Shown: positions 5,975 to 50,188, numbered from the stretch's first letter. The stretch is DNA of 64,000 bases from an uncultured virus (IMG/VR IMGVR_UViG_3300010429_001900) (IMGVR_UViG_3300010429_001900), one strand, 5' to 3'. Notes: generated by a model not told the origin, from the letters alone. Translations and numbers: made by a program.

Positions 5975-6412
5975 TCAACCTTGTTTCGGCACGGACCGGA
6001 TGCGCGCGCTGGTGATCCGGCCGAGGTTGTCGTAGTTCACGTTGTTGATCTCGAACTCGCGAGGCGGCGCGGACTCGGGCGGCTGCACCGTGATGTGGTT
6101 GTGGTTCTCGATCGGCGTGGGCTGCACGTCGATGCGGTTCTCCACCAGGGTCTGCGGCACGTCGACCTTGTTCGTGACGTGCACCTGCGGCGCCTCCAGG
6201 CGCAGCTCGCGCAGTGCCGCGACGATGGCTGCAGGCCCGCCGCTCGCGTGCTCCTGCAGCGCCGCAACCAGCTCGCTCAGCGACGCGGCCACCTCCTCGG
6301 TGGCGTCCTTCTTCTGCCGCAACAGGTCCAGTGCATCCGCCAGGGCCGCGCTGACTTCCGCCAGCAGCAGCTCCAGGGGTTGCGAGTTGGATTCCGCCGT
6401 CATCCCATGCAC
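5975..6412 (-). CDS. Hypothetical protein
   Basis: 145 aa; helical N-terminus, then V.N.(I/V).V.P repeats; overlaps the end of the giant gene. Confidence 0.7.
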   Translation of the reverse strand: MHGMTAESNSQPLELLLAEVSAALADALDLLRQKKDATEEVAASLSELVAALQEHASGGPAAIVAALRELRLEAPQVHVTNKVDVPQTLVENRIDVQPTPIENHNHITVQPPESAPPREFEINNVNYDNLGRITSARIRSVPKQG

Positions 6413-9400
6413 TTCTTCAGCGAGTTGAGGACCGAGAGGCGCTTGCGCAGCTCGACGACCCGGTCCTGCGCGGCCTGCTCGTCTTGCAGCAGGGCCTGCA
6501 GTGCCGTGTCATCGGCAGGATTGTACGGAGCAACCGTTTGTGGCTCAACCACAGATTTCTGCGACTCCGGGCGCGCCGATTCGGCCGGCGCGGCATCGCC
6601 GACGCGGCCCTCGGTCCAGGTCCACTCCGGCATCAGGCCGGCCTTCTGGTCGGCGAAGACGGTGTCATCGGTGCGCGCGTTGCGGTTGGCCTCGCCGTGC
6701 GGCCCGTAGTTCAGCCAGCTGTTTTGCCCGCGGGTCTCGCTGGTGATGGCGCCGACAGCGTCGCCGGTGAACAGCCTGACGTGCGCCTGCCAGGCGTTCT
6801 CCTCGCCCTGAGCGCGAAACCCGCAGCCCTCCAGGCCGTGGCCGAAGGCGTCGTGCGCGGCGCGGAACAGGTCGTTGGCCAGCACGGGCGCCTGCTCCCC
6901 GTCGAGTCCGCCGACCGGCCAGGTCAGGCCGGTGTCCGAGAGCAGCGGGTTGCCGTCGGGGTCGAAGGCGGCATTGCTGCCGAAGCCCTCGTTGGTCGGG
7001 AACACACCCATCGAGCGGCTGGCGCGGATGTCGCGCATCGCATTCCATGGCGACGTGGCGTACTCGGCGTTCTCGGGGCGCTTCAGGTCGATGAACCAGA
7101 AGCGGTAGCCGGCCGCCACCAGCGCGTCGTACTGTGCGCGCGTCTGGCGGATCAGGTCGGCATACGCAGCCTTCACGCGCGGGTCTTGCGGCGCGTGCTC
7201 CATGGCCCCGTAGGCGGCGGCGATGCGGCTGGCGCGGCCTTCGTCGATCTCGGCGTAGGCATCCTGGCGCTTCAGGTCGATGCCGTTGTCGCGGGCGTAC
7301 TCCTCGGCGACGGCGACCAGCCGCGGGTCCGGCCCATGGAAGCCCGGCACGCGCGGCGCGCCAGGCAGAGGCGTCAGCGCTTCAGCATCTGCGCGTTCTG
7401 GTGACGCCAGCGCGCGATCCGCAGCGGCCCCGTCTCCGGCTCCTCGGCTTCGCGTCGCAGAGGCTCGGGCACCTCCGCCCACAGCTCCGCCGTCATCGTC
7501 GGGACTCCGTCCGGGTAGTTCATCGCCAGGTACGTCTCCAGGTTCAGAGGCATCCCCCTCTTCAGCATAAACTCCAGGGTCGCGTCCTGCCCAGCTAGGG
7601 GCGTCAATTCCGCCTCCAAGCTGGAGGGCCTGGTCTCTTGCGTCTTCATAGCTCAGTCGTCCTTTGCGGTACTTGTACCAGATTGCGTCGACGGCGTCGA
7701 CATTCTTCTGCTGCGGCTTGAAGCCCGGCACGAACAGCCCGCGCACAGCCTCCCAGGTGATCGACTGCAGCTCGCGCGGCAGCAGGCCCCGCTCGGCGGC
7801 CGCGCGGCGGTAGGCCTCCTCGTACAGCGCGTAGCTTCCTTCCAGCCCGGCGTGGGCGCTCTTCGGCCCACTGAAGTTGTGCATCACCTCGACCGAGTTG
7901 CCGGACAGCGCGCGCAGCAGCGCCGCGGCCACGGCGTGCGTGTCGATGGTGACGTGCCCGTTCGGGCTGTTCGGCACCAGGATGTTGTTGTAGAAGTTGC
8001 GGACCTTGTGCTTGCGGCCGAGCTGCTCGTTGATGTTCGCGAACGACCCGTCGCGGAAGATCGAGACGGCCTTCGCGATCGTCCCGTTCCCGCCCCAGGC
8101 CGGCTTGGCCAGTTCGCCCTTGATGGTGCGCGCCTCAGCCACAAGATCGCCCTCCGGCGACACGATCATGAAGCTGCGCGGGTTGTGGGCCTCGTCGTAC
8201 ACGCGCAGCCACATGGCGCGCTCGTAGTCCAGCTCAAGCTCGCCCAGCGACTTGCCCTTGATGGAATCGATGGCAACCTTGTAGACGGGCTTGCCGAAGA
8301 TCCGGTCGGCGGTCTCGGCCATCTGCCCGGACCAGCGGAAGGTCTGTCGCTCGGCCATGATCTGCGCCACGCGATCGGCCAGGCTCACGTTCATGAACCA
8401 GTCCTTCTGCGGGCTCAGTGAGGCCAGGATGCCGGCTGCCTGGGACGGCTCGATGCCGTACTTGCGCGACATCGTCTCGGCGATCTTGCGGGCGCCGTCG
8501 TACCACAGCTTGCTGCGCGCTCGGATCTCTTCCGGCACCTGGTCGTGCAGCCACACCAGGTTGTCGGTCATGAAGCGGACCTGACGCTCCAGCTGGCGCT
8601 CCGGCGTGGTCGCGCTTTTCGCCTCGCGGTAGCCTGGGTACTGCGTGACCAGGTCGGCCACCGCGGACATCCAGCCCTCCTGGCCGAGGCCAGCACTGAA
8701 GTCGGCGATCAGCAGGTTCTCGATCGAATCCTCGGGGGTGAACCCCTTCTTCGGCTTGGCCGACGGCGCGCGCGTGCTGACCTCCATCGGGTCGACGCGC
8801 TCCAGGTTGCGCTCGCCGCTGAAGCGCGTGGACGATCCGATGCGCTCCAGCTCGGCGTTGGCCTGCTCCTGGGCCTCGGCCGGCACCACCAGCGTGCCCG
8901 CGCGCAGCGTCGCGCCCGGGATGTTCGCCAGGTCGATGTCGCGCATCTCCCGCGACATCAGGGCCTTGCGCAGCTCGGCGGGCTCGGGCGCGGGCGCAGC
9001 GTCACTGTCCACCGGCACGTCCGAATGCTTCTTGCCCACCAGCACCGCGAAGCCCTGCGGCATCGCCGGGTCCAGGCTGAGGTAGCCATCGAAGCCGGCC
9101 TTCATCAGGGCCCGCTCCCAGTTGTTGGCGCCCGGGTTGGCCTTGCGCAGCCCCAGCGGGTCGGACCAGACGTCGTACAGGTTGTTCAGCTGGACGCGGT
9201 GCGCGTAGCCGCCCACGCCGGCCTCGGGGCGAATGCCGCTGCCCTTGTCGACGTAGAAGAAGATGCGCGGCCGGATGTCGGCGTTCTCGGCGCCTTCGAG
9301 GCGGGCCCGCTCGGCGCCCTTCAGTCCGGTGCCGTAGTGGGCGGAGCTGAGGGTGTCTCGGGCGGCGGTTCCGTAGTGGACACCGGTCGCAGATACGGAG

Positions 9401-12400
9401 CCCTCTTGCGGGCGTCCGTAGCTCGCTGCTGGCGCGTCAGCGCCTCCAGCCGCTGCAGCGACTCCTCCAGCGACCCGGCCCAGTCCTTGTCCGTCCAGGT
9501 TGTCACGGCCGGGAGTGTACGCCCGCGCCGTCGACTTCGTCGCGGCCTGCGTCGCGCGCAGGATCTCGGCCTGCATCGCCGTCGGGCTGACGCCGGCGTC
9601 CTTCAGGTAGGCCTTCAGCGCCTGCTTGTACGCGGCGCGCACGCCAGCCACGTCGGCGACGAACTGGTCGGTCTTGTAGCCCGGCGCGCCGCGGAAGGCG
9701 TCGAGCGCCTTCGTCAACACCGCCTCCAGCGCGGCGATCACGCGCGCAATCACCCCCTTGGACTCGGCGCCGGACTCGCGACTCAGCTCGGCGAACACGT
9801 CCGTCCAGAAGGCTGGGTCGGACATGACATTGCCCGCCAGGTCGGCGCGCATCTCCTCGGCCAGCCCCTCCGCGCTGATGCCTGGCATGTTGTAGTAGCG
9901 GCGGAAGCGCGCCATGCCGTCGGCGCTGACGCGGCCCTCCAGCGCGCGCTTGACGATCTCCGCGGCCTGCGGCAGCGTGCGCTCCAGCGTGTGCCAGAAC
10001 TCGTGCAGCATCACCGCCAGCGGCGACACCTTCGAGTCGGCGGCAACGTAGATCACGTCCGGCGCGCTCGGCACCGTGAAGCCGTCCGCCCCGCCCATGT
10101 CGGCCCGCGCGGCGTAGAAGCGGACGCGTCGGCCGAGAGCCTTCGCCAGGGCGCTGAGGGCCTGCGCCGGCCCGCTTTCCGGCGTCGGCACCAGCGCGAC
10201 GCTGACGCGCTTGCCGCCGGGCTCCTGGACTACGACTCGGTCGGCGGCGTCTCCTGCAGCGCGTCCTCGTTGCGCTGCGGGTTGATCCTGACCTCCTGGC
10301 CCTGCGCGTCCACCAGTCTGCCGTCCGGCAGCCGGATCAGCTCGACGCTGTCCTTCGTCTCGTCCTTGTCCATCGCGGGCCTTTCCGAATTCAGGGCTGA
10401 CCGGCTTCTTCGCCGCGGCCGATTTTACCCAGGCCTTGAACTGCGCGGGCGTCATCTCGGTGATCGCGCCCAGGCCGGTCCAGCCCCGCTCGTAGTTCGC
10501 CAGGTAGCCCTCTCGCGCGGCGGCCTCGCTGGTGAAGCCCATCATCACCTTGTGCTCGTCGAACGAGCCGTCGGCGTTGCGCTGGTCGACCACGAAGATC
10601 TTGTCGCTGTCCGGACGCGGGCCGATGAACACGTCCACCGCGTCGCCGTCGGCGCCCTTCGTGCCGGTCACGTCGCCGTAGTGGTGGGCGAGCTTGGTCT
10701 CCCAGGCCTTGCCGTCCGGCGATACGCCGCGGCGCATCGAGCCGCGCGGGTTCTCGATCGACACGCGCACGCCGTTCAGGTTGGCGATGTGGCCCTTCTT
10801 GTAGTTGCCGGCCTCGGCCTGCGCCGGCGTCGGCTCGGCGCGGTCGTTCTTCGGGCTGGCGGCGGCCTCGTGGGCCTGCGCGTCGATGTGCGCGGCGATG
10901 GCGGCGCGTGCCAGCTGCGCGTCGGCCCGGCCGTCGAGCGCCAGCTCATTGCCGGTCTTGCTGTCGCTCAGGATGAAGCCGACCCCGTCGCGCTGGTGGA
11001 CCGTGTCGAAGCCCATGGCGACGAGCTGGTCGAGCTGCGCGCGGCGCTTGCGGTTGACGGCCGTGCCGGCGCCCCCGGGAATGGCGGGCGCACCTTCGGT
11101 GGCCACTGCATCTTCGGTCGCCACCTCGTCGCGCCGGGCCGACTGGCGCATCTGCTCCAGCGCCAGCTTGTCCGTCGCCGACAGGTTGGCCGGGATATTG
11201 GCCGCATCGTTCAGGATGCGCATCTGGTCCGGCGTGTAGGACGAGCGGGCCTTGGCCACCAGCGCGCGCTGCTCTGCGCTGCGCAGCACCGGGATGGTCT
11301 TCAGCGCCGAGATCACCGCGTCGGCTGCGGGCGGCTCGGCCGGCTCGGCCGGCTGGGCGTTGGCGGCGTCGCGGGCCTTGGCGGCGGCCGCGCGCTCCCG
11401 GGCCAGCTGCTGCAGGCGGCTGTCGCTGCGCTCGTTCTGCTCCCTGGCGCGGTCGGCGGCCTCGGTGCTGGGCTGGCCCTGCGTCGAGCGCGGCGCCTTG
11501 TCCAGCGCGATGCCGGTGGCCTGCGTCAGCTTCTGGTCCTCGGTCAGCGCCGGCGCCAGCGTCATGTCGACGCGGTCGTAGGGCTGGCCCAGGCCGGCCT
11601 CGGACAGGATCTGCGCCTCGGCCGGCGAGGCCACGCCGTTGCGCTCCTCGATGCTCTTCAGTGCACGGGTGATCACCGCCTGGCGCGGGTCGTCCTCGGC
11701 CTTGCGCTGGGCGACCTGGCCGGCGAGCGCCGCGGATTCGAGGCCTTGCTGCTCTTGCGCGCTGATCGGTGCAGATTCGGCGACGTTCGCTGCCGTTTCT
11801 GCAGCGGGCGCGCGCAGACGCATCTCGCGGTTGACGCCCATCTGGGCGCGGATCTGCTCGCGCTCAGCCTCGGTGGTGGCGGCGGCCAGCTGCTCCTGCA
11901 GTTGCGCCTCGCGGTCGACGGCGGTGCGCCGCTGCGCCACGCTCGGCGCCGCGCCCGGATCCTGGGCGTGCTGTCCGGCCCAGCCCATCGCGAACTCCAG
12001 GCGCGTCATGGCCTGCTCGCGCTGGTGCTGCTGGGTCGACGGGCTCGATGCCGTGGCCAGGTCGTTCAGGAAGGCCTTGACGTCCACCGGCGAGTCCTCG
12101 CCGCGCAGCGCGTCGATCAGGCCGCCGTCGCGAACCTGCTGCTGGATGGCCTGGGCCTTCTGCGTGATCGGGTCGACCTGCGGCTCGGGCTGCGCCGGCG
12201 CGGCTGCCTGCTGCGCCTCGTTGCCAGACACCGCCGCCTTCGACAGCGGGCTGTTCGGCTCGGCCGCCTTGGCCTTGACGTCGGACAGCGGATCTGCGGC
12301 GGGGGGCAGCGCGGCGCGCGGCGCGTGCAGCGCTCCAGAAGCTCCTCCCAGAGCAAAGCCGCCGGCAGCGCCCATGCCCGCGTTTTCGCCGACGCCCTCG

Positions 12401-13842
12401 CTCAAGTCCTGGGCCGGGTCGACATGCCGCGCCAGCGAGACATTGCCGGCGAACTGCCCGCCCCCCTCTTCAAGCCCCTCTCCGGCGGTCTCCCCAAGCG
12501 CTGCTTTGGCGGCGTGGAGTGCGCGCGCCGGCAGCCCGCCCTTGGCAATGACAGATTTCGCGGCGCCCCCGACCAGCGCGCGCTCGATGGCCGTTCCGCC
12601 AGGCACGGCATTGGCGATGACGGAGATGGCAAACGCCGCGGGCAGCGCCTCGCGCGCCGCCGTCAGGGCCAGCTCGTGCTTGACCTGGCCCTCGCTCTCG
12701 CCGGCCTGCGTGCGTCGCGCGAACTCCGGATTGGCGGCCCACTGCTCCGGGGTCTTCTGCATCGCCCGGTCGTACAGGTCGCCGACCACGTCCGCGCCCT
12801 GCTGGACTCCGTTGACGCCCACCGCGGCGGCCACGCCGAACTTGGACGCACTGGAGGCGATGGCCTGGCGCGCCGCCAGCGGCACCGGCCCGGCGGACAT
12901 CGCATTCATCATGGCGCGCGCGCCGACAACCGCAGCCGTAGCCCGTCCGGCCGCAGCCGCGGGAATCAGGGAGGCGATGTTGCTGGCGGCCAGGTCGCCG
13001 ATCAGCGCCGGGTCACTCAGCGTGGTAGCGAACGCCGCCCAGGCTTTTCCGAGCACGGAGTCTTCGGCGTCGATGGCCGCGCTGCGTGCCTCGCGCTTGC
13101 CTTGCAGCGTGGTACTCTGCAGGCCTTCCAGGTACTTCTGCGCCTCGCCGCCCGCCGTCGAGACCGCATTGTCCATGTCGCCGGTCGCCAGGCCGTAGAG
13201 GTCGCCGCCAGCCTTGAACAGGCCCACCAGGCCGGAGCCAAGCCCCAGCGCCGTATCCTTCGCGGCCTCTCCCCAGCTGCGCGGCTGCGCCGCGGCGGCA
13301 GGCTTGATGTCGATGTAGTCGTCGCTCCGCGCAGGCTGCTGAGCAGGCATTGCCGGCTGCGCGCCAAGATGCTGCGCCGCCATGGCCGCGGCAGCCACAC
13401 CCTTGCTGATGTAGTCCTTGTCCTCGGCATAGCCGACGCGCTTCAGCTCGGAGAAGAACTTCTGCGCATCGCCGCCGGCGCCCATGGCCGGCCTGTACAT
13501 GCGACCCATCAGGCCGACGAACTCGTCGCCGAAGGCGTCCGGCGTGGCGAAGGCGCGGTAGGCGTCGCGCTTGCCGTTCTGGTTGTCGGTGGCCATCGGC
13601 CCGCGGCCGCTGGGGTCCTTGATGTTGCCCAGGTTGTTCGTGCCGGGGATGACGCTCTTGCCCCAGCCGGTCTCCAGTCCCCACTGGCCGAGCAGAACCT
13701 GCGGCTCGACGCCCAGCTGGCCGGCCACGCGCTTCGCCAGCGGCAGGTACTGCTGGACGAACTCGGCGACCTTGCCGCCGCCGGTCGGTGCGCTCGGCGC
13801 CAGCAGGTCGTCAGCGGAGAAGGAGATGAGGCTTTGGCTCAT
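6400..13842 (-). CDS. Giant polyvalent internal virion protein (glucosaminidase + InPase-like + HExxH metallopeptidase-like + ART-like + DUF7178-like + C-terminal HxxxxH domain)
   Basis: N-term LGQWGLETGWG..NNLGNIK..YAED (FlgJ-type glucosaminidase); NYKKGH..SIENPRGS..HYGDVTGTKGADGDAVDVFIG (InPase-like); LHEFWH; GVHYG...IFFY; WYDGA..SLSPQKDW..KVRNFY..VTIDTHA..LQSITW; FRAAHDAFGHG..GEENAW. Confidence 0.9.
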   Translation of the reverse strand: MSQSLISFSADDLLAPSAPTGGGKVAEFVQQYLPLAKRVAGQLGVEPQVLLGQWGLETGWGKSVIPGTNNLGNIKDPSGRGPMATDNQNGKRDAYRAFATPDAFGDEFVGLMGRMYRPAMGAGGDAQKFFSELKRVGYAEDKDYISKGVAAAAMAAQHLGAQPAMPAQQPARSDDYIDIKPAAAAQPRSWGEAAKDTALGLGSGLVGLFKAGGDLYGLATGDMDNAVSTAGGEAQKYLEGLQSTTLQGKREARSAAIDAEDSVLGKAWAAFATTLSDPALIGDLAASNIASLIPAAAAGRATAAVVGARAMMNAMSAGPVPLAARQAIASSASKFGVAAAVGVNGVQQGADVVGDLYDRAMQKTPEQWAANPEFARRTQAGESEGQVKHELALTAAREALPAAFAISVIANAVPGGTAIERALVGGAAKSVIAKGGLPARALHAAKAALGETAGEGLEEGGGQFAGNVSLARHVDPAQDLSEGVGENAGMGAAGGFALGGASGALHAPRAALPPAADPLSDVKAKAAEPNSPLSKAAVSGNEAQQAAAPAQPEPQVDPITQKAQAIQQQVRDGGLIDALRGEDSPVDVKAFLNDLATASSPSTQQHQREQAMTRLEFAMGWAGQHAQDPGAAPSVAQRRTAVDREAQLQEQLAAATTEAEREQIRAQMGVNREMRLRAPAAETAANVAESAPISAQEQQGLESAALAGQVAQRKAEDDPRQAVITRALKSIEERNGVASPAEAQILSEAGLGQPYDRVDMTLAPALTEDQKLTQATGIALDKAPRSTQGQPSTEAADRAREQNERSDSRLQQLARERAAAAKARDAANAQPAEPAEPPAADAVISALKTIPVLRSAEQRALVAKARSSYTPDQMRILNDAANIPANLSATDKLALEQMRQSARRDEVATEDAVATEGAPAIPGGAGTAVNRKRRAQLDQLVAMGFDTVHQRDGVGFILSDSKTGNELALDGRADAQLARAAIAAHIDAQAHEAAASPKNDRAEPTPAQAEAGNYKKGHIANLNGVRVSIENPRGSMRRGVSPDGKAWETKLAHHYGDVTGTKGADGDAVDVFIGPRPDSDKIFVVDQRNADGSFDEHKVMMGFTSEAAAREGYLANYERGWTGLGAITEMTPAQFKAWVKSAAAKKPVSPEFGKARDGQGRDEGQRRADPAAGRQTGGRAGPGGQDQPAAQRGRAAGDAADRVVVQEPGGKRVSVALVPTPESGPAQALSALAKALGRRVRFYAARADMGGADGFTVPSAPDVIYVAADSKVSPLAVMLHEFWHTLERTLPQAAEIVKRALEGRVSADGMARFRRYYNMPGISAEGLAEEMRADLAGNVMSDPAFWTDVFAELSRESGAESKGVIARVIAALEAVLTKALDAFRGAPGYKTDQFVADVAGVRAAYKQALKAYLKDAGVSPTAMQAEILRATQAATKSTARAYTPGRDNLDGQGLGRVAGGVAAAAGGADAPAASYGRPQEGSVSATGVHYGTAARDTLSSAHYGTGLKGAERARLEGAENADIRPRIFFYVDKGSGIRPEAGVGGYAHRVQLNNLYDVWSDPLGLRKANPGANNWERALMKAGFDGYLSLDPAMPQGFAVLVGKKHSDVPVDSDAAPAPEPAELRKALMSREMRDIDLANIPGATLRAGTLVVPAEAQEQANAELERIGSSTRFSGERNLERVDPMEVSTRAPSAKPKKGFTPEDSIENLLIADFSAGLGQEGWMSAVADLVTQYPGYREAKSATTPERQLERQVRFMTDNLVWLHDQVPEEIRARSKLWYDGARKIAETMSRKYGIEPSQAAGILASLSPQKDWFMNVSLADRVAQIMAERQTFRWSGQMAETADRIFGKPVYKVAIDSIKGKSLGELELDYERAMWLRVYDEAHNPRSFMIVSPEGDLVAEARTIKGELAKPAWGGNGTIAKAVSIFRDGSFANINEQLGRKHKVRNFYNNILVPNSPNGHVTIDTHAVAAALLRALSGNSVEVMHNFSGPKSAHAGLEGSYALYEEAYRRAAAERGLLPRELQSITWEAVRGLFVPGFKPQQKNVDAVDAIWYKYRKGRLSYEDARDQALQLGGGIDAPSWAGRDPGVYAEEGDASEPGDVPGDELPGRSPDDDGGAVGGGARASATRSRGAGDGAAADRALASPERADAEALTPLPGAPRVPGFHGPDPRLVAVAEEYARDNGIDLKRQDAYAEIDEGRASRIAAAYGAMEHAPQDPRVKAAYADLIRQTRAQYDALVAAGYRFWFIDLKRPENAEYATSPWNAMRDIRASRSMGVFPTNEGFGSNAAFDPDGNPLLSDTGLTWPVGGLDGEQAPVLANDLFRAAHDAFGHGLEGCGFRAQGEENAWQAHVRLFTGDAVGAITSETRGQNSWLNYGPHGEANRNARTDDTVFADQKAGLMPEWTWTEGRVGDAAPAESARPESQKSVVEPQTVAPYNPADDTALQALLQDEQAAQDRVVELRKRLSVLNSLKKCMG
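6520..6548 (-). promoter_or_regulatory. Internal sigma70-like promoter with operator in spacer
   Basis: TTGAGC-17-TACAAT; spacer contains CACAAACGGTT. Confidence 0.6.
7374..7649 (-). CDS. Overprinted nested small protein (alternative frame of giant gene)
   Basis: AAAGGA RBS; LEFMLKRGMPLNLETYLAMNYPDGVP..AELWAEVPEPL reads like real protein while the host frame is G/D/A/R low-complexity. Confidence 0.65.
   Translation of the reverse strand: MKTQETRPSSLEAELTPLAGQDATLEFMLKRGMPLNLETYLAMNYPDGVPTMTAELWAEVPEPLRREAEEPETGPLRIARWRHQNAQMLKR
9321..9506 (-). CDS. Overprinted nested small protein
   Basis: MTTWTDKDWAGSLEESLQRLEALTRQQR; host frame becomes G/A-rich linker here; no clear RBS. Confidence 0.5.
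   Translation of the reverse strand: MTTWTDKDWAGSLEESLQRLEALTRQQRATDARKRAPYLRPVSTTEPPPETPSAPPTTAPD
10230..10373 (-). CDS. Overprinted nested small protein (47 aa)
   Basis: GGAAAGG RBS; MDKDETKDSVELIRLPDGRLVDAQGQEVRINPQRNEDALQETPPTES*, almost all codons G/C-ending. Confidence 0.6.
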   Translation of the reverse strand: MDKDETKDSVELIRLPDGRLVDAQGQEVRINPQRNEDALQETPPTES

Positions 13843-18197: not shown

Positions 18198-19363
18198 GGG
18201 GTGATTTCCAGGAAGATGCGCAGCCCGGTGAAGCCCGAGCACGACGTCATTGAAAACTTCAGGATGTCGCCGGCCGCGACGGACGTCGTCCAGCCGGTGA
18301 GCACGGTGCTGCTGTACTTGTGGCCGGCCGCGATGTTCGGCGGCGCGGCCGCGACGATCGAGTCACCAGCCCCGGGCGGGTAGCTCGCGTAGACATCCTT
18401 CTTGATGTCGATCACGCACGAGCCTGGCCCGCCCTCGCCGAGCACGACGACCTTGGTGATCGTGCCGGCCCGCGGGCAATGCACGCAGGGCTCGTCGGCG
18501 CCGACCGGGTCGATGGCCGCGCCGCCGCCGGACCAGCTGGCGCCGCGCACGTCGATCGGATCCGGGCCGCCTCCGCCGCCTGCCACGACCGACCCTTCCG
18601 CCGGCGCCAGGCGCCACTCCTCCGCAGCCTCGTCGAAGACGGCCACCGCGCGCACCACGGTGACGGCGCCCGGCGTGTCGTCGACGACGGCGTCCGTCAG
18701 CCACATGTCGCCGAAGCCGACCGTGTGCCCGCCGACCGCGTCCTGCGTCAGCACCAGGCGGTACTCGGCGCCCTCCATCAGGCTGTCGATGTCCTCGATC
18801 ACGCAGTCCTGGTCCACCAGCAACGTGAAGGCGTTCGATGCGCGCCCGTCGATCCACACATTGCCGTCTGCCTCGACCGACAGGTCGACGCTCTGCACCG
18901 TCTGCGCGCCGATCCAGTGGTTCGGCCGCTCGACGATGTCGGCACGGGTCAGCCACGGGCGCGCCGCCAGCGCGGCGATCTCGTCGGCCAGCTCCTGCAC
19001 GCGCCGGGTGAAGAGTGTTCGCTGGTCCGTCAGTGTGCGCTCCAGCTGGCGCATCGCGTTCTCCAGCCCGCTCAAATCGACCGGCTGGCCCGCGGAATCG
19101 GCCGACTCGACGGTCGGCGCGGCGCGGGCCTTCAGCGCAGCGATCTCCGTGTTCAGCGCCTCCAGCCGCTGCGCCAGGTCGCGCTCGGTGACGGCACGCT
19201 CGAAGCCGTCGCCGCGCGCGCCCAGCCGCACCTCGACCCATTCGCGCAGCGCCTCCAGCGCCTGGCGGGCCGCCGGGTCGGCGACGCGCGAGGCCTGCAG
19301 CCCGGGCAGCCGGGCCGGCGCGTTGGCATGCGGGCCGCGCCGCGTGAGCTTGCCGCTGGTCAC
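18194..19363 (-). CDS. Tail protein (coiled coil plus fibre-type modules)
   Basis: EWVEVRLGARGD N-terminus, coiled coil, WIGAQT..LTQDAVGGHTV, C-terminal GSCVIDI..TGWTTSVAAGDILKF. Confidence 0.75.
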   Translation of the reverse strand: MTSGKLTRRGPHANAPARLPGLQASRVADPAARQALEALREWVEVRLGARGDGFERAVTERDLAQRLEALNTEIAALKARAAPTVESADSAGQPVDLSGLENAMRQLERTLTDQRTLFTRRVQELADEIAALAARPWLTRADIVERPNHWIGAQTVQSVDLSVEADGNVWIDGRASNAFTLLVDQDCVIEDIDSLMEGAEYRLVLTQDAVGGHTVGFGDMWLTDAVVDDTPGAVTVVRAVAVFDEAAEEWRLAPAEGSVVAGGGGGPDPIDVRGASWSGGGAAIDPVGADEPCVHCPRAGTITKVVVLGEGGPGSCVIDIKKDVYASYPPGAGDSIVAAAPPNIAAGHKYSSTVLTGWTTSVAAGDILKFSMTSCSGFTGLRIFLEITP

Positions 19364-19403
19364 GCCTTACGGCTCCTGTTTGGTTGCGTCATGACTGTTT
19401 GTT

Positions 19404-20381
19404 CTACGGCCGGCGCGCCCAAGAGACGCGAAGCGTCAACGACAGCTGCTTGGTGCCGATCTTGTTGAAGGTCGGCGAGAACTGGAACTGGTAGACGCCC
19501 AGACTGGACGGCAGGACGACGGACGTGACGTCGCCGATGTTCCCGTAGAGCAAGTCCCAGAAGTGCAGGATGTCCCGCTGGTGGCTGGTGGCCGAGTAGG
19601 CCTGCGGCGAGCCGATCAACGGCCCGTTGTTGGCTGTGCCGGAGGGGGTGCTGGTGATGGCGCCGAGGGTGCCGGCGTAGACGATGGGGTAGTGGGACGG
19701 GTTGGCGCCGATTTGGCTGAGCGGGTAGGGGCACCAGGCGTTGACGCCCGTGACATAAGCCGCGCGCGCCGTGACGGTGTACTCCACGCCGGACATCGTG
19801 AGGGCGAACGTCGTGTCTGTGAGTGGCGGGTACAGGCGCAGCGTGTAGGTCACGTCCAGCACCTCGTCGGACAGGACGGTGACGGTCGTAGGCTCGCCCT
19901 CGCCGTCCAAGACCAAGGCGCGAGACCAGAGCGTCGACCCGGTGGACTCCCAGCCGATGCCGACCTCGCTGATGTTTCCGGCGGCAGCCCCCGTGGCGAA
20001 GCGGTAGGTGGTGGTGTACCAGCCGAAGTACGGCGCGCTTGCCTGCGCGCCGTAGGCGTTGAAGACGGTGTTGTTGGTGGCGGCGACCGGGATGGCGAGG
20101 CTCGTGTCGCCCACGCTCGGCTCGGTAGACCCGCTGCCGGCGCGGCACCACCCAATGATCGCGCCGGTGCCCCAGCGCTCCAGCCCGATGTCGGTGATCA
20201 GGTTGTCGAATTCCGCGAGGAACCGGCGCGACCCGTCCGGGCGCACCGCTTCCATCTTGAAGTGCCCCGAAACGGAGCCGCCCAAGGTGAGCACGGCAGG
20301 CCGGTCGCGCGACCGACGCAAGTCGGAAGAGGGCAGCATCAGCCCATGCTTACGCGAAAACGAGAAGTCGCTCTGGTTCAT
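19404..20381 (-). CDS. Tail structural protein
   Basis: FDNLITDIGLE..G.GSTEP..GNISEVG..LWSRAL..DVTYTLR, a phage tail-protein pattern. Confidence 0.75.
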   Translation of the reverse strand: MNQSDFSFSRKHGLMLPSSDLRRSRDRPAVLTLGGSVSGHFKMEAVRPDGSRRFLAEFDNLITDIGLERWGTGAIIGWCRAGSGSTEPSVGDTSLAIPVAATNNTVFNAYGAQASAPYFGWYTTTYRFATGAAAGNISEVGIGWESTGSTLWSRALVLDGEGEPTTVTVLSDEVLDVTYTLRLYPPLTDTTFALTMSGVEYTVTARAAYVTGVNAWCPYPLSQIGANPSHYPIVYAGTLGAITSTPSGTANNGPLIGSPQAYSATSHQRDILHFWDLLYGNIGDVTSVVLPSSLGVYQFQFSPTFNKIGTKQLSLTLRVSWARRP

Positions 20382-41491: not shown

Positions 41492-41863
41492 ATGAACACC
41501 GAAGACTTCCTCCGCACCTACCACCTGTCGCGCAACGGCGCCAACCAGATGTACCGCCACCCGCTGTGGAAGCGGCTGGTCTACAGCGACGGCATCCGCG
41601 ACCTGGCCGACGCGGGCTGCCACTGGCTGCTCGACATCATCGGCACCGAGGTGGTCCAGGCCATGACGCGCTGCACCGGCCTGGGCATCCTCAAGGCCGT
41701 CGTCACGGAAAGCCGGGCCAGGCTGGAGCTGACCCTGACGGACGACGCGCCTCCGGCCTGGGCGAGGGACGTGCCCTACACCGACCTGCCGGAAGGCGAG
41801 TGGATCCTCTACCTGTCCAGCGACGGTCGCGACTGCACCGTGATCCTGCCCAACGAATACTGA
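41492..41863 (+). CDS. DUF6876-like protein
   Basis: YRH...VYSDGIRDLA..GCHWLLDII..PYTDLP..ILPNEY. Confidence 0.7.
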   Translation: MNTEDFLRTYHLSRNGANQMYRHPLWKRLVYSDGIRDLADAGCHWLLDIIGTEVVQAMTRCTGLGILKAVVTESRARLELTLTDDAPPAWARDVPYTDLPEGEWILYLSSDGRDCTVILPNEY

Positions 41864-41878
41864 CCCGAGGACCGCACC

Positions 41879-42097
41879 ATGACGACCGGAACCCGCACCA
41901 ACCCGAAGACCGGGATGAAAGAGACCTACGAGCTGCCGCCGCCGGTCGATCTGGCCCGCAGCCGCAAGGAGCTGCGCGACATGATCCACGGCAACACCCA
42001 GTGGCACGTCGACCCGGGCTCGCCGCCGCCCACGCAACCCGCACAACCTGCCGACAGCGACCAGGACCAGGACTGGATCGGCGTCTACGGGTACTGA
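41879..42097 (+). CDS. Hypothetical protein
   Basis: GAGGA RBS. Confidence 0.7.
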   Translation: MTTGTRTNPKTGMKETYELPPPVDLARSRKELRDMIHGNTQWHVDPGSPPPTQPAQPADSDQDQDWIGVYGY

Positions 42098-42100
42098 GCC

Positions 42101-42376
42101 ATGAAGATCACCTACCTGAACCGCATCTTCACCGAGCAGGGCTGGGACGTCTACAGCCTGGTCGAGCTGGAGGAGGCAGAGATCGAGCAGGCGCGCCAGC
42201 AGCGCACAGGTGAGGCCCGCCTGGTGGAGGACTGGCTGAACGACCGGCGTGAGTCGACCATGGCGCGCGCCGGCGACAGCGCGTCGATCTCCATGTCGGC
42301 CTCACCGCACCCGGGCCGGCCGCACACCTTCATCGTCGTCGCCGAAGTCTGCCTGGCCCGCGAGCCGAAGGCCTAA
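42101..42376 (+). CDS. Hypothetical protein
   Basis: Operonic, codon bias. Confidence 0.7.
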   Translation: MKITYLNRIFTEQGWDVYSLVELEEAEIEQARQQRTGEARLVEDWLNDRRESTMARAGDSASISMSASPHPGRPHTFIVVAEVCLAREPKA

Positions 42377-42390
42377 CCCAGGAGCCAACC

Positions 42391-42552
42391 ATGCCCTACC
42401 GCGCCCTCCTCATCACCCTGGCCATCGCCGCTGCGGCCGTGCTGTCCGCGCTGCACCTCGTCGCGCAGGCGCAGGAGGCTGCGCGCCGCCTGGCCGCCGA
42501 GCACGCCGCCAAGGTCTGCCGCGCCGTCGGCGACGACGCGTGCGATCTCTAA
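42391..42552 (+). CDS. Small protein with N-terminal TM
   Basis: AGGAG RBS; MPYRALLITLAIAAAAV. Confidence 0.65.
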   Translation: MPYRALLITLAIAAAAVLSALHLVAQAQEAARRLAAEHAAKVCRAVGDDACDL

Positions 42553-42563
42553 AAAATGGTCTG

Positions 42564-42592
42564 TTGACAATCAAACAGTTATGGCGTAACAT
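42564..42592 (+). promoter_or_regulatory. Sigma70 promoter
   Basis: TTGACA-17-TAACAT; spacer contains TCAAACAGTT. Confidence 0.8.
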
Positions 42593-42679
42593 TCAGCCTC
42601 GCCTCAACCAACGGAGATCGACAAGTGACCAAGACTGAGATCAAGCGGCTCTGCGGAATAACGCGTGGAAGTGACCATC

Positions 42680-43009
42680 ATGAGTGACAACCAGAAAACG
42701 GAAAAACGTGTGGAAAAGCGGCAGGCGAAGAACCGCCACGGCCAGTTCATGCGCCTGGACTGGGAAGACGATTCGGACGTGGAGTACGTCTACGGCCACG
42801 TCACCCTTGACCAGGCCAAGGCTGCGTTTGAGAGCTATGGCGGCTCTGGTTGTGGTGAGGCTGTGAACGGCATCAAGCATCGCTGGGCGCGCAAATGTCC
42901 GACCGGGCAGTATTCGGAGTACGAGTGGATGCTGCACACCTACGACGTGCCGTCTCGCGGCGCGTTCCCGGTGACTGAGCTTGATGTCTCCACTGCCAGG
43001 ACCGCGTGA
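42680..43009 (+). CDS. Passenger gene 1, hypothetical
   Basis: MSDNQKTEK..EYVYGHV..FPVTEL; lower GC. Confidence 0.7.
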   Translation: MSDNQKTEKRVEKRQAKNRHGQFMRLDWEDDSDVEYVYGHVTLDQAKAAFESYGGSGCGEAVNGIKHRWARKCPTGQYSEYEWMLHTYDVPSRGAFPVTELDVSTARTA

Positions 43010-43311
43010 TGCCCTGCTACATCGAGCACACCAAGGACGGCGACACGATGTTCCTGTGTGGCGACCTCGGGCCGCACTGCGCAGCCGACAAGTGCGCGGC
43101 CGTGAGCGGCTGGCTGTGCGACTACCCGGTTGGCGATGGCAAGACCTGCGACCTGCCACTGTGCGGCAGCCATGCCTACGAGGTGGCACCGAACATTCAC
43201 TACTGCCCCGGCCACCTGACGCTCTGGAGCGCATTCCGCGACTCCGGCGGTGTGAAGCGCGAGCTTGAGAACGTGGTCCCGTTTCCACACAGCACCACTT
43301 CCAAGTCATGA
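43006..43311 (+). CDS. Passenger gene 2, Cys/His-rich (Zn-binding?)
   Basis: LCDYPV..KTCDLPLCGSH..HYCPGH. Confidence 0.75.
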   Translation: MMPCYIEHTKDGDTMFLCGDLGPHCAADKCAAVSGWLCDYPVGDGKTCDLPLCGSHAYEVAPNIHYCPGHLTLWSAFRDSGGVKRELENVVPFPHSTTSKS

Positions 43312-43541
43312 CCCCGTTTCCACACGTTAATCCGTTGAGCCGATCAAGCAAGCCCGCGCCGCCGGCAACAGCGCCTGGGAGGTGCTCGCGATGGTGGTCG
43401 CCGCCGGGCGCGAGTTCCCGGACGCCGTCTTCGCCGTGTCCCAGGCCCTGCGCATGGACCCCGAAGAGGTCGAGCAGATGGAAGCCGACTACGACGAGTG
43501 CTGCTGAGCGCCCCTACACCCGCCACCCCCAGGAGATCCAC

Positions 43542-43969
43542 ATGACCGACCAGACCAACACCCCCGACAACCTCGAAGCCGTGATGCGCCGCATCAAGAA
43601 GCTGCTGGCCTTCGCCGAAGACTCGCGCGGCAACCCGACCGAGTGCGCCGCCGCTGCGCGCATGGCCGAGTCGATCATGCGCAAGCACCAGATCGAACAC
43701 GCCGACGTGATCACGAAGGAGCTGCAGGGCGCCGACGCCTTCGCCAGCGCCGACGTGGGCACGACGATGGACCCCGAGGCCGCATCCAAGCCCGCGACCG
43801 CGCGCTGCAGACCTTCGACCAGGCGGCGGCCACCCAGACGGTCGGCCTGTACGAGATCCGCCGGCGCGGCACCGGCCGGCTGCTCGGCTACCACCTCAGC
43901 GCGTGGCAGCACCTGATGCCGCTGCGCACCGAGCGCGGCCGCTACTTCATCCCCATCCGCCAGTCCTGA
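43542..43969 (+). pseudogene. DUF2786-like gene 5' part joined out of frame to the 3' end of another gene
   Basis: AGGAG RBS; RIKKLLA..N..E.AAA..A..IMRKH; coding-like frame switches near 43778. Confidence 0.6.
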
Positions 43970-43979
43970 AAGCACCACC

Positions 43980-44732
43980 ATGAAGAAGTACGAGCTCGTC
44001 CACAGCGACACGATCACCATCGCCCCTGGACGCACTGCCACGCGCATTCGCGCGCTGGTCGCGATCGCAGCGCTGGGCATCACCCCCGGCGAGCTGGGAG
44101 GCTATGTCGAAACCGAATCTAACCTCGCCCAGGTGGGCGGCGACGCCTGGGTGTACGGCAACGCCTGGGTGAGCGGCGACGCCCGGGTGAGCGGCAACGC
44201 CCGGGTGAGCGGCGACGCCCGGGTGAGCGGCAACGCCCGGGTGAGCGGCGACGCCCGGGTGAGCGGCAACGCCTGGGTGAGCGGCGACGCCGGGGTGAAC
44301 GGCAACGCCTGGGTGTACGGCAACGCCCGGGTGAGCGGCGACGCCTGGGTGTACGGCGACGCCCGGGTGAGCGGCAACGCCCGGGTGAGCGGCGACGCCC
44401 GGGTGTACGGCAACGCCCGGGTGAGCGGCAACGCCTGGGTGTACGGCGACGCCCGGGTGAGCGGCAACGCCTGGGTGAGCGGCGACGCCCGGGTGAGCGG
44501 CAGCGCCTCCATCCTGGTGATCGGCCCAATCGGCTCGCGCCAAGCGATGCTGACGGCGCACGCCGACGCAAAGACCGGCGTGCGCTTCTCGACTGGCTGC
44601 TTCAGCGGATCGCGCGCCGAGTTCGAAGCAGCAATCACCGCCAGGCACGGCAACAACGAGCACGGCAAAGCCTACGCGGCTGCGCTGATGCTGGCCGACG
44701 TCGTCATCAAGCCTGCCGGGGTGACGCAATGA
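43980..44732 (+). CDS. Left-handed beta-helix hexapeptide-repeat protein
   Basis: GELGGYVE.E.NL, 21 V(S/Y)G(N/D)A(R/W) repeats, TGCF.G. Confidence 0.85.
   Translation: MKKYELVHSDTITIAPGRTATRIRALVAIAALGITPGELGGYVETESNLAQVGGDAWVYGNAWVSGDARVSGNARVSGDARVSGNARVSGDARVSGNAWVSGDAGVNGNAWVYGNARVSGDAWVYGDARVSGNARVSGDARVYGNARVSGNAWVYGDARVSGNAWVSGDARVSGSASILVIGPIGSRQAMLTAHADAKTGVRFSTGCFSGSRAEFEAAITARHGNNEHGKAYAAALMLADVVIKPAGVTQ
44133..44510 (+). repeat. 18-bp coding tandem repeat, 21 copies
   Basis: Unit GTG(AG/TA)CGGC(G/A)ACGCC(C/T)GG. Confidence 0.95.
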
Positions 44733-49509: not shown

Positions 49510-49934
49510 GGTGCGTCGATCGCGTCGATGCCCATGCCGCAGCCGGCATCGAAGTGGCAGGCCACCCGCACCGCCTCGGCCGCCGACATCCCGCAGAACA
49601 TGGCGGCCAGCGCGTAGTCCCTTCCCGAGCCTAAGGCCAGCACCGGGTCTTCGTTGATGATGGCGCAGGGCGTGTCCTCGTAGAGCATGGGCCGCCCGCC
49701 CTCGATCACCAGCGTCGCGCACCAGTTTTCGCCGCGCTGGTGCTCTGGGAACCGCTCCGGCTTCCGCCCGTCGCGCACCCACTCGACCATCTCCAGGCCG
49801 TGGGCCAGGTCGCCGGACACGCCGACCAGCAGCTCGCCCACGCGGAACACCTTGGTCACGGTGCGCTTCATGCCGCTGCTTGTGGCCTGCTTGTCGGCCG
49901 CCAGGGTCTTGCCGTCCCACGCGAGAACCGTCAT
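49506..49934 (-). CDS. Ntn-hydrolase/proteasome-subunit-like protein
   Basis: MTVLAWDGKTLAADKQAT..ALGSGRDYALAAM..AEAV. Confidence 0.75.
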   Translation of the reverse strand: MTVLAWDGKTLAADKQATSSGMKRTVTKVFRVGELLVGVSGDLAHGLEMVEWVRDGRKPERFPEHQRGENWCATLVIEGGRPMLYEDTPCAIINEDPVLALGSGRDYALAAMFCGMSAAEAVRVACHFDAGCGMGIDAIDAP

Positions 49935-50188
49935 GCGGCCTTGCCTCCCTCGCGCGTCCAGGCCAGCGACACCCACGCGCCCGCAGCCGGCTGGTTGTGC
50001 AGCGGCGCATCGATCACCGCCATCACGCCGTCATCGCACCGCGCGGTCACCAGGCGCACGACGGTGCGCACGTCGACCGATCCGGGGTGCCGCCAGCCAA
50101 GCACATGCACCTCGCTGCCGGGCACCACGCCGCGGTGGTACGGCAGCTCGGCGCCGGCAGGCAGGTTGCGGAAGATCCAGGACTTCAT
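49931..50188 (-). CDS. Hypothetical protein
   Basis: ATGA overlaps. Confidence 0.6.
   Translation of the reverse strand: MKSWIFRNLPAGAELPYHRGVVPGSEVHVLGWRHPGSVDVRTVVRLVTARCDDGVMAVIDAPLHNQPAAGAWVSLAWTREGGKAA

What the first reader, a model, noticed from the sequence alone, without database searches (positions are those of the whole stretch)
42639..43349. Transposase-less two-gene cassette with TIRs and 8-bp target duplication, inserted into the first gene behind an early promoter
Seen: left end GGCTCTGCGGAATAACGCGTGGAA (42647-42670) matches the reverse complement of the right end GGCTCAACGGATTAACGTGTGGAA (43318-43341) at 20/24. GATCAAGC flanks both sides. Excision restores an in-frame gene (MTKTEIK|QARAAGNSAW...DECC*). 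The cargo is two phage-like ORFs and no transposase. The stump of the broken gene stops at 42685-42687, overlapping the cargo start (ATG 42680), so the cargo may use the promoter at 42564 by translational coupling. Established: 8-bp TSDs and GGC-starting IRs of this length are typical of IS1595-family elements. Inference: a non-autonomous gene-shuttling cassette moving accessory genes between phages.
Basis: partly seen in the sequence, partly recalled or inferred. Interest (0 to 1): 0.8.

Follow-up and report, generated by a model that had tools for sequence, protein, structure and literature searches.

The report
Transposase-less ISL3 gene cassette in phage
A 695-base jumping-gene shell without its own transposase has dropped two small genes into a phage gene, and sister shells with the same ends carry many different genes, several of them anti-defence genes, into unrelated phages.

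Summary
The 24-nt inverted ends (42647-42670, 43318-43341), the 8-bp duplication GATCAAGC and the split 59-codon gene are all there.

The element is real and mobile. The same 695-bp cassette, 94.5-97% identical, lies in four other contexts with unrelated flanks. Contigs of two other metagenome runs break off exactly at 42647 and 43341. Fifteen uninterrupted 59-65-aa homologues of the broken gene exist.

It is ISL3, not IS1595. Twenty-three full-length relatives with the same ends were recognised by size and mutual similarity. The two scanned carry ISL3 transposases (PF01610). One is the annotated insertion sequence of Burkholderia phage Bcep22.

All 23 have passenger ORFs between the left end and the transposase. 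Seventeen elements lack a full-length transposase, and two of them keep an internally deleted one. Identified cargo includes DNA methylases, DpdA, Lar, NADAR and Acb2/Tad1.

The ends are rare in bacteria: 4 loci in 185,579 species genomes.

Verdict: a mobile insertion cassette of a phage-borne ISL3 lineage. The function of its two genes is unknown. This scan noted similar cassettes on other DNA.

The parts
42564..42592 (+). Sigma-70-like promoter (TTGACA-17-TAACAT) upstream of the interrupted gene. It is the likely source of transcription into the cassette.
   Evidence: 10 of 12 consensus positions. It is the only such site in 41500-44500, against 0.1 expected from shuffles. Function is inferred.
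42625..42687 (+). 5' stump of the interrupted 59-codon phage gene. The first 7 codons are native. It then reads into the left end and stops at TGA 42685-42687.
   Evidence: The N-terminus matches the uninterrupted homologues P0001-P0016.
42639..42646 (.). Left copy of the 8-bp target-site duplication GATCAAGC.
   Evidence: The G......C outline fits the family's target bias.
42647..42670 (+). Left terminal inverted repeat (IRL), 24 nt.
   Evidence: The same repeat bounds elements in viral contigs. Contigs of runs X6 and X9 change to unrelated sequence exactly before 42647.
42699..42715 (+). Left subterminal repeat (CGGAAAAACGTGTGGAA). Its GTGTGGAA lies 37 nt inside the IRL. It is probably a second transposase-binding site, and it encodes part of the N-terminal leader of ORF1.
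   Evidence: 40 of 43 element entries have a 36-38-nt gap at one end and a 26-27-nt gap at the other. The binding role is inferred.
42680..43009 (+). Cargo ORF1, 109 aa, function unknown. The first 16-18 residues are encoded by the transposon end.
   Evidence: 11 homologues; the four most distant homologues lack the leader; residues 1-15 are disordered in the model; pN/pS 0.43; phrog_10472, unknown function, E 2e-4.
43009..43311 (+). Cargo ORF2, 100 aa, Cys/His-rich, function unknown. Its ATG overlaps the ORF1 stop (TGATG). Its last 10 codons are encoded by the right-end region.
   Evidence: at least 227 homologues with invariant Cys/His columns; a homologue (gp33) is a passenger of the Bcep22 insertion sequence; a homologue sits in phage PARCL1pr without any such ends; pN/pS 0.25.
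43283..43290 (-). Right subterminal repeat (GTGTGGAA on the minus strand), 27 nt inside the IRR.
43318..43341 (-). Right terminal inverted repeat (IRR), 24 nt.
   Evidence: A contig of run X9 changes to unrelated sequence exactly after 43341.
43342..43349 (.). Right copy of the 8-bp target-site duplication GATCAAGC.
43350..43507 (+). Orphaned 3' part of the interrupted gene: two bases of the split codon, 51 codons and the stop.
   Evidence: 15 uninterrupted homologues of 59-65 aa, 64-86% identical. P0010 is the window's own 38-aa fragment.

Best explanation
The segment 42647-43341 is a mobile insertion cassette. It is a transposase-less derivative of a lineage of ISL3-family insertion sequences that lives in phage genomes.

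Full-length members are built IRL, passenger gene(s), ISL3 transposase, IRR. Each end has a 24-nt terminal repeat and a subterminal GTGTGGAA, 37 nt in at the left and 27 nt in at the right. These are presumably the transposase-binding sites (inferred).

The window's cassette kept both ends and two passenger genes and lost the transposase. A transposase supplied in trans inserted it. The source would be a full-length relative in a co-infecting phage, a prophage or the host (inferred). It landed in a locally A+T-richer 8-mer inside a 59-codon accessory gene and duplicated GATCAAGC.

The two cargo genes are probably transcribed by read-through from the phage promoter at 42564. ORF1 may be translated by re-initiation where the stump stops, and ORF2 through the TGATG overlap (inferred).

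What the cargo does is not shown. Sister elements carry DNA methylases, DpdA, Lar, NADAR and Acb2/Tad1. My best guess is therefore that ORF1 and ORF2 also act in phage-host conflict. I give that guess about 40%.
For: Shown for the window's cassette:
- TIRs, duplication and split gene are present.
- The 695-bp unit is 94.5-97% identical in L045, L026, L105 and L106. The 1.5 kb on either side shows no blastn similarity. L045 has its own 8/8 duplication, GTGAAACC.
- L021 is the same phage with the same insertion.
- A contig of run X6 matches 42647-43311 with 0 differences behind a different flank. Contigs of run X9 start at 42647 and end at 43341.
- Fifteen intact homologues of the target gene exist.
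- The window holds no transposase. The nearest record G001 has neither a transposase nor such ends.

Shown for the family:
- The two partners scanned against Pfam have ISL3 transposases: L011 PF01610 2e-53, L016 2e-54.
- The Bcep22 copy at 18217-20374 is annotated with two 'putative insertion sequence boundary' features and a transposase.
- 30 of 41 distinct insertions have an 8/8 duplication.
- Duplications have 35% G+C against 58% in the flanks. They are lower in 28 of 30 (Wilcoxon p 4e-6). G is first in 14 of 30 and C is last in 16 of 30.
- 40 of 43 element entries show the 37/27 end asymmetry.
- In all 23 full-length elements the transposase ORF starts 354-1509 nt after the IRL, with at least one ORF of 63 aa or more in between.
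- L036 and L064 carry a 129-aa in-frame remnant of the transposase: its N-terminal 75-83 residues are joined to its C-terminal 55 or so. L023 and L085 hold other remnants.
- The autonomous elements with the closest ends are L067 and L035: 22 of 24 at the IRL and 23 of 24 at the IRR.
- Cargo with a Pfam family: C5 methylase (L011/L069, L092), N6/N4 methylase, DpdA, Lar, NADAR twice, DUF5131, DUF1643, Aca2/YdiL, and Acb2/Tad1 and nucleoside deoxyribosyltransferase.
Against: - Nobody has seen this cassette move. Mobilisation in trans is inferred from its distribution.
- No transposase partner lies in the window or in G001.
- Three of the five contexts of the 695-bp cassette (L026, L105, L106) lack a duplication: 4, 1 and 5 of 8 positions agree. 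So do 11 of the 41 insertions overall, one of them at 7 of 8. I cannot explain this. Recombination between copies, or intramolecular events, are guesses.
- No empty-site allele of this same phage was found as DNA. Contigs of X2 and X3 show no joint across the cassette, but contigs drop rare variants.
- The cargo has no known function: no Pfam match, only unknown-function PHROGs, weak models and no fold match at E <= 0.001.
- Most passenger ORFs of the family have no family either. Of the 57 ORFs sent, 13 had a hit, and 2 of those were transposase remnants. 'Anti-defence cargo' therefore rests on a minority.
- A crude test of co-orientation with flanking genes gave 26 same, 12 opposite and 5 undecided of 43. 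The method is unreliable in G+C-rich DNA.
Confidence: 0.85

Rival explanations
1. The cassette derives from the IS1595 family, and IS1595-type transposases move it.
For: It has an 8-bp duplication and ends that begin with GG.
Against: The two autonomous elements with these ends that were scanned carry PF01610, PF14690 and, in one, PF13542. All are ISL3 families, and no IS1595 family was reported. GenBank names the Bcep22 copy an ISL3 family transposase. The transposase remnants in L036, L064 and L023 are also of ISL3 type.
Confidence: 0.02
2. The cassette is autonomous. ORF1 or the Cys/His-rich ORF2 would be a small, unrecognised transposase or nuclease that moves the element, as has been proposed for the ultra-small mobile elements of mycobacteriophages.
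For: ORF2 has conserved Cys and His columns that could bind metal. The same two ORFs travel together in all five contexts. No partner lies in the window.
Against: Elements with the same ends carry unrelated cargo and no ORF1 or ORF2. By tblastn only the five cassettes hit ORF1, and only these and Bcep22 hit ORF2, among 43 elements. ORF2 homologues are ordinary phage genes without such ends, as in PARCL1pr. Distant ORF1 homologues lack the end-encoded leader. Full-length relatives encode a standard DDE transposase.
Confidence: 0.04
3. The cassette is a fossil. It arrived once by transposition and is now fixed and immobile, and its spread among contexts reflects homologous recombination of phage modules rather than continuing transposition.
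For: Three of five contexts lack a duplication. Solo left ends with decayed transposase remnants exist (L023, L042). The first 33 nt of the left end differ more between copies (0.17 per site) than the ORFs do (0.03-0.04).
Against: Similarity stops exactly at the first and last base of the repeats in every context. This is not what recombination in flanking homology gives. Two contexts have their own perfect 8-bp duplications (window and L045). Both ends keep the terminal and subterminal motifs. A copy with 0 differences over 665 nt lies behind a different flank in another study's run.
Confidence: 0.15

Closest known systems
Mobile insertion cassettes (MICs), such as MIC231 of the Bacillus cereus group. 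Name and example are recalled. In one search I saw only search listings that hold the term.
   Same: Insertion-sequence-type terminal inverted repeats around passenger genes, no transposase, a target duplication, and dependence on a cognate transposase in trans.
   Different: This one derives from ISL3 rather than IS231/IS4. It lives in phage genomes. Its first cargo gene is fused to a leader encoded by the transposon end. Its relatives carry DNA-modification and anti-defence genes rather than housekeeping or resistance genes.
The insertion sequence of Burkholderia phage Bcep22 (NC_005262, 18217-20374; gp32 transposase, gp33, gp34).
   Same: The same end pattern and an 8-bp duplication, AGAAGAAC. 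The same 37/27 end architecture. Its passenger gp33 is a homologue of the window's ORF2, 57% identical over 83 aa.
   Different: Bcep22's element is autonomous: 2158 bp with a 482-aa ISL3 transposase. The window's has none. gp34 is unrelated to ORF1 (one search found no hit). I could not read the describing paper (Gill et al. 2011, PMC3187461). I do not know what it says about the passengers.
ISL3-family insertion sequences with passenger genes ('transporter IS', such as ISPpu12). Recalled from ISfinder and the literature, not checked here.
   Same: A DDE_Tnp_ISL3 transposase with an N-terminal zinc ribbon, an 8-bp duplication, repeats of about 24 nt starting with GG, and passenger genes inside the ends.
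   Different: In this lineage every one of the 23 full-length members examined has a filled passenger slot upstream of the transposase, and the cargo differs between members. The lineage is rare in bacterial genomes.
MPME1/MPME2, the ultra-small mobile elements of mycobacteriophages (recalled).
   Same: Small elements of a few hundred bases, bounded by inverted repeats, that move between phage genomes and carry a small ORF.
   Different: MPMEs have short repeats of about 11 bp, one conserved ORF and no identified transposase family. Here the ends, the duplication and the partner transposase place the element in ISL3, and the cargo varies.
MITEs in viral genomes (Nadal-Molero et al. 2024, PMC11602168; passages read).
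   Same: Non-autonomous elements bounded by inverted repeats and found in phage sequences of IMG/VR.
   Different: That survey treats MITEs as non-coding and found them in 0.01% of viral sequences. It does not mention ISL3 or passengers: both terms occur 0 times in its main text. This cassette is coding.

Membership tests
ISL3 family of insertion sequences (as a non-autonomous derivative) | The cognate transposase has the DDE_Tnp_ISL3 domain. | tested here: met
   Met for the autonomous relatives with the same ends, not for the window's element. L011 PF01610 2.3e-53 and L016 2.2e-54, with PF14690 and, in L016, PF13542. The Bcep22 copy is named an ISL3 family transposase. The 23 transposases are 46-98% identical to one another. 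The window's element encodes none.
ISL3 family of insertion sequences (as a non-autonomous derivative) | An 8-bp target-site duplication. The figure is recalled from ISfinder. | tested here: met
   The window has GATCAAGC twice. 30 of 41 distinct insertions are 8/8 and one is 7/8.
ISL3 family of insertion sequences (as a non-autonomous derivative) | Terminal inverted repeats of 15-39 bp that begin with GG. The range is recalled from ISfinder. | tested here: met
   The repeats are 24 nt, agree at 20 of 24 positions and start with GGCTC.
Mobile insertion cassette (MIC) | No transposase gene between the ends. | tested here: met
   ORF1 and ORF2 have no Pfam family. tblastn of 23 family transposases against the window gave nothing better than E = 0.018.
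Mobile insertion cassette (MIC) | Passenger gene(s) unrelated to transposition. | tested here: met
   ORF2 belongs to a family of at least 227 proteins that also occurs without such ends. ORF1 homologues exist without the end-encoded leader. pN/pS is 0.43 for ORF1 and 0.25 for ORF2.
Mobile insertion cassette (MIC) | Mobilised in trans by the transposase of the parent insertion sequence. | not testable with these tools
   This is inferred. The same cassette lies in five contexts with exact boundaries, and autonomous elements exist with ends 22-23 of 24 identical. It needs a transposition assay.
   The Pfam scan of the two partner transposases reported only ISL3 families.
MITE | Non-coding and small. 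| tested here: not met
   Two ORFs fill 42680-43311, 632 of the 695 nt. Both have homologues and pN/pS below 1.

The most novel reading that the evidence does not exclude
A lineage of ISL3 insertion sequences has specialised on phage genomes as a general gene shuttle.

Each autonomous member has an open cargo slot behind a conserved left-end leader. Deletion of the transposase produces many small cassettes. Together these move counter-defence and DNA-modification genes (methylases, DpdA, Lar, NADAR, Acb2/Tad1) between unrelated phages.

On this reading the cassette ends would mark new anti-defence genes. ORF1 and ORF2 of this window would be two such candidates. Insertion sequences, usually held to be purged from phages, would be a regular route by which phages gain weapons.
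Probability: 0.45. Interest if true: 0.85.

Novelty: new member of a known kind. Interest (0 to 1): 0.68.

Why it matters
Insertion sequences are held to be rare in phages because selection purges them. I read this view in passages of PMC3091744 and PMC11602168.

Here one ISL3 lineage turns up on about 72 viral contigs, by my count of the table. The stricter end pattern finds only 4 loci in 185,579 bacterial and archaeal species genomes. One of those abuts an integrase.

The lineage does not arrive empty. It brings genes, and those that can be named are mostly of kinds used against host defences.

This gives a concrete and testable route for the exchange of single accessory genes between unrelated phages. 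It also gives a cheap sequence tag, the 24-nt ends with the 37/27 subterminal motif, for finding new candidate counter-defence genes. The window's ORF1 and ORF2 are among them.

In six full-text searches I found no paper that describes this lineage or phage-borne ISL3 cassettes. The Bcep22 paper, which I could not read, may hold part of it.

Tried and rejected
- Own genome: not held. The nearest record, G001, ends at about window position 49868-50000 and does not cover the locus.
- Cultured phages: megablast of 30000-54000 found nothing. blastn found only ORF2-like genes in PARCL1pr and Bcep22.
- Empty site as DNA: the search for related loci with the 51-aa C-terminal part found no relative in viral contigs. 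Contigs of X2 and X3 showed no joint across the cassette. Neither is evidence of absence.
- Cargo function: Pfam gave nothing and PHROGs only unknown-function families. AlphaFold gave mean pLDDT 65.2 for ORF2 and 75.6 for ORF1. Foldseek against the PDB gave no match at E <= 0.001. The best rows for ORF1 were ribosomal protein chains at E 0.04 and TM about 0.3, which I take as meaningless. The ESM Atlas gave only unnamed, mostly viral clusters.
- Parent element: tblastn of ORF1 and ORF2 against all 43 elements found no full-length element with both genes. Only Bcep22 has an ORF2 homologue.
- I first took the ATGAC just after the ORF2 stop for a remnant of the transposase start. Comparison with full-length right ends shows it is part of the conserved spacer of the right end. 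I rejected the idea.
- Stops in all three frames just inside the left end, as a device for coupling: 23 of the 41 distinct sequences close all frames within 48 nt (my count). The sequences are related, so this is no test. I keep it only as a remark.
- Orientation relative to flanking genes: the crude score gave 26 same, 12 opposite and 5 undecided. I do not rely on it.
- Runs with a share of 0.30-0.40 that I did not lay (19 of the 21 such rows) are not counted as evidence. Only X6 and X9 were laid.
- Of the 32 unpaired loci, several lack the subterminal motif and may be chance matches to the 16-base pattern. I did not classify L076 (3040 bp, duplication 2 of 8).
- The pairing allowed up to 2 mismatches to the 16 fixed positions. 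Elements with more diverged ends are missed.

Full report
**Observation**

The sequence is as described. The left repeat lies at 42647-42670 and the right repeat at 43318-43341 on the other strand. They agree at 20 of 24 positions. GATCAAGC flanks both.

A pattern that covers both ends, with up to 3 mismatches, matches only these two places in 64 kb. It matched none of 100 shuffles.

The interrupted gene starts at GTG 42625. It keeps 7 native codons, reads into the element and stops at 42685-42687. Its 3' part ends at 43507. Without 42647-43349 the frame is restored to 59 codons.

A promoter-like site (TTGACA-17-TAACAT) lies at 42564-42592. It is the only one in 3 kb, where shuffles give 0.1.

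Each end also has a second GTGTGGAA, 37 nt inside the left repeat and 27 nt inside the right.

The window is a phage genome. It has terminase, portal, major head protein, a 2479-aa virion protein, a lysis cassette and a replicative helicase. The cassette lies in a block of small plus-strand genes of unknown function. Its G+C is 62% against 68.8% for the window.

**The ends recur**

A scan of viral contigs with the strict end pattern gave 21 loci. A looser pattern gave 82 stretches, on about 72 distinct contigs by my count of the table.

I paired plus-strand and minus-strand ends within 12 kb. After collapsing two duplicates this gave 41 distinct insertions of 370-3040 bp.
- 30 have an identical 8-bp duplication.
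- One has 7 of 8.
- Ten have 5 or fewer of 8.

Duplicated sites are poorer in G+C than their surroundings: 35% against 58%, lower in 28 of 30, Wilcoxon p 4e-6. They tend to start with G (14 of 30) and end with C (16 of 30). The window's GATCAAGC fits this.

In 40 of 43 element entries one end has the subterminal motif at 36-38 nt and the other at 26-27 nt. The family therefore has a fixed left and right end.

**The family is ISL3**

Twenty-three of the 41 elements hold an ORF of 455-511 aa that ends inside the right repeat. The two that I scanned have DDE_Tnp_ISL3 (2e-53 and 2e-54), the ISL3 zinc ribbon and, in one, the ISL3 helix-turn-helix. The 23 proteins are 46-98% identical to one another.

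One element is the insertion sequence of Burkholderia phage Bcep22. Its GenBank record marks both 24-nt ends as 'putative insertion sequence boundary' and calls gp32 a transposase. The sister record says 'ISL3 family transposase'. An older paper lists it among the few insertion sequences known in wild-type phages (PMC3091744, passages read).

No IS1595 family was reported.

**From full element to cassette**

In all 23 full-length elements the transposase ORF starts 354-1509 nt after the left repeat. One or more ORFs in the same direction lie in between.

Seventeen elements have no full-length transposase. They measure 370, 434, 456, 564, 600, 659, 695 (five contexts), 708, 860, 921, 983, 1091 and 1114 bp.

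Two of them, L036 and L064, still carry a 129-aa in-frame remnant. In it the N-terminal 75-83 residues of the transposase are joined to its last 55 or so, and the whole catalytic domain is gone. The remnants are 66-93% identical to full-length relatives. L023 and L085 hold other remnants. This shows the route from full element to cassette directly.

In the window nothing of the transposase is left.
- The last 10 codons of ORF2 run through the right subterminal motif and spacer.
- The first 16-18 residues of ORF1 are the translation of the left-end region.
- More distant ORF1 homologues lack these residues, and the model leaves them disordered.
- The same leader is fused to unrelated cargo in L024, L060, L069, L075 and L096.

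**This cassette has moved**

The 695-bp unit occurs in L045, L026, L105 and L106 at 94.5-97% identity. The 1.5 kb on each side shows no detectable similarity. L021 is the same phage with the same insertion (100%).

L045 has its own perfect duplication, GTGAAACC. L026, L105 and L106 have none, which I cannot explain.

Among public runs, three hold the whole 1.6-kb stretch. Twenty-one others hold 0.30-0.40 of its sampled words, about the share that the cassette makes up.

I laid four runs.
- In X6 a contig matches 42647-43311 without a difference, and unrelated sequence begins exactly before 42647.
- In X9 two contigs begin at 42647 and one ends at 43341, again with unrelated sequence outside.
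- The runs that I did not lay are not counted.

**The target gene is real**

Fifteen uninterrupted proteins of 59-65 aa match the C-terminal 51 residues at 64-86% identity. Their N-termini match the stump.

**Cargo of the window**

ORF2 belongs to a family of at least 227 small Cys/His-rich proteins, mostly viral. One homologue is gp33, the passenger next to the Bcep22 transposase. Another sits in Pseudomonas phage PARCL1pr with no such ends nearby.

ORF1 has 11 homologues.

Among the five cassette copies pN/pS is 0.43 for ORF1 and 0.25 for ORF2. Neither protein could be given a function.

**Cargo of the family**

- sent two family passengers. One, from L011 (the same element as L069), is a C5 cytosine methylase.
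- sent 57 passenger ORFs, and 13 had a Pfam family. These were N6/N4 methylase, DpdA, Lar restriction alleviation, NADAR (twice), DUF5131, DUF1643, DUF551, Aca2/YdiL with two helix-turn-helix families, and two transposase remnants.
- sent 22 further ORFs. It added Acb2/Tad1, a C5 methylase (L092) and a nucleoside deoxyribosyltransferase.

That NADAR, Acb2/Tad1, DpdA and phage methylases counter host defences is recalled knowledge, not tested here. Most passengers have no family.

**Where the lineage lives**

- The strict end pattern found 4 loci in one genome each of 185,579 species. Three are on short contigs of metagenome-assembled genomes. The fourth, in an Acinetobacter genome, abuts an integrase gene.
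- The looser pattern matched 2 of 401 genomes sampled from that genome's class, one of them that genome itself.
- Among 50,697 cultured phage records only Bcep22 has a close transposase (53% identity). The others are at 41% or below. They include a set of Vibrio phages in which the transposase match overlaps a DNA methyltransferase annotation.

**Mechanism**

Shown: the anatomy, the family of the partner, the exact boundaries, the duplication and the spread.

Inferred:
- The transposase binds the terminal and subterminal motifs.
- The cassette is moved in trans.
- It is transcribed from the promoter at 42564, since no other promoter-like site lies in it.
- ORF1 is translated by re-initiation at the stump's stop, and ORF2 through the TGATG overlap.

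How ISL3 transposases cut and join is not settled, as far as I recall, so I make no claim on it.

**Known or new**

The kind is known. It is a mobile insertion cassette derived from an insertion sequence that carries passenger genes, and one autonomous member was annotated in Bcep22 long ago.

What I did not find in print is the lineage as such: a phage-borne ISL3 group with an always-filled cargo slot and many cassette derivatives. A recent survey of MITEs in viruses treats them as non-coding and mentions neither ISL3 nor passengers. I could not read the Bcep22 paper.

Earlier notes of this scan describe ISL3-type cassettes in bacteria, and an IS1595-type methylase cassette in phage-like genomes, on other DNA. 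None covers this sequence.

**Verdict**

The element is a real, recently mobile, transposase-less ISL3 cassette in a phage.

Noticed in passing
L036:7624-8013 and L064:7624-8013: Two elements of different sublineages carry the same kind of in-frame transposase deletion. The N-terminal zinc ribbon is joined to the C-terminal zinc-finger-like tail at a repeated R-C-x-x-C motif, giving 129 aa in both. Either this is a recurrent deletion hot spot, or the short protein is kept for a purpose such as regulation.
   Followed up: partly
Family elements in L026, L029, L053, L054, L067, L076, L091, L101, L105 and L106: Ten of 41 paired elements have no target duplication (5 or fewer of 8). Three of them (L054, L067, L091) have a T-rich flank beside the end listed second: CTTTTTTT, CTTTTGTT and CTTTTTTT. 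This is unexplained.
   Followed up: no
Run X6, contig laid on window 42647-43311: A copy identical over 665 nt departs from the window right after the ORF2 stop codon, inside the right-end spacer, and continues with other sequence for at least 61 nt. It may be a longer relative or a rearranged copy.
   Followed up: no
L023:7587-8006, L042:8486-8647, L043, L079 and L033: Solo left ends have no detectable right end within 8 kb. Some are followed by decayed transposase pieces: L023 holds the C-terminal half of PF01610, and L042 the first 54 aa or so. They look like cargo being fixed in the phage after loss of mobility.
   Followed up: partly
Cultured Vibrio phages of the K series, e.g. OZ195684 22195-23376: A distant ISL3 transposase (34% identity) whose match overlaps features annotated 'transposase' and 'DNA methyltransferase', in 17 or more records. 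ISL3 elements with methylase passengers may be more widespread in phages than this lineage.
   Followed up: no
window 43980-44732 (+): A 250-aa protein made largely of a repeated heptad-like unit (G-D/N-A-R/W-V-S/Y). It matches phrog_7964 at 1.5e-72, of unknown function. The antisense frames stay open over the repeat.
   Followed up: no
window 6400-13842 (-): A 2479-aa virion protein with endolysin-like and DarB-like antirestriction matches. Giant proteins of this kind are found in Bcep22-like podophages.
   Followed up: no
L107:4001-4983 (Acinetobacter genome contig): A 983-bp family cassette with 37% G+C and the duplication ATTATTTT. It carries an Aca2/YdiL-like helix-turn-helix protein and a 67-aa ORF, and lies about 75 nt from the end of an integrase gene. 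It is the only hit in an isolate genome.
   Followed up: partly
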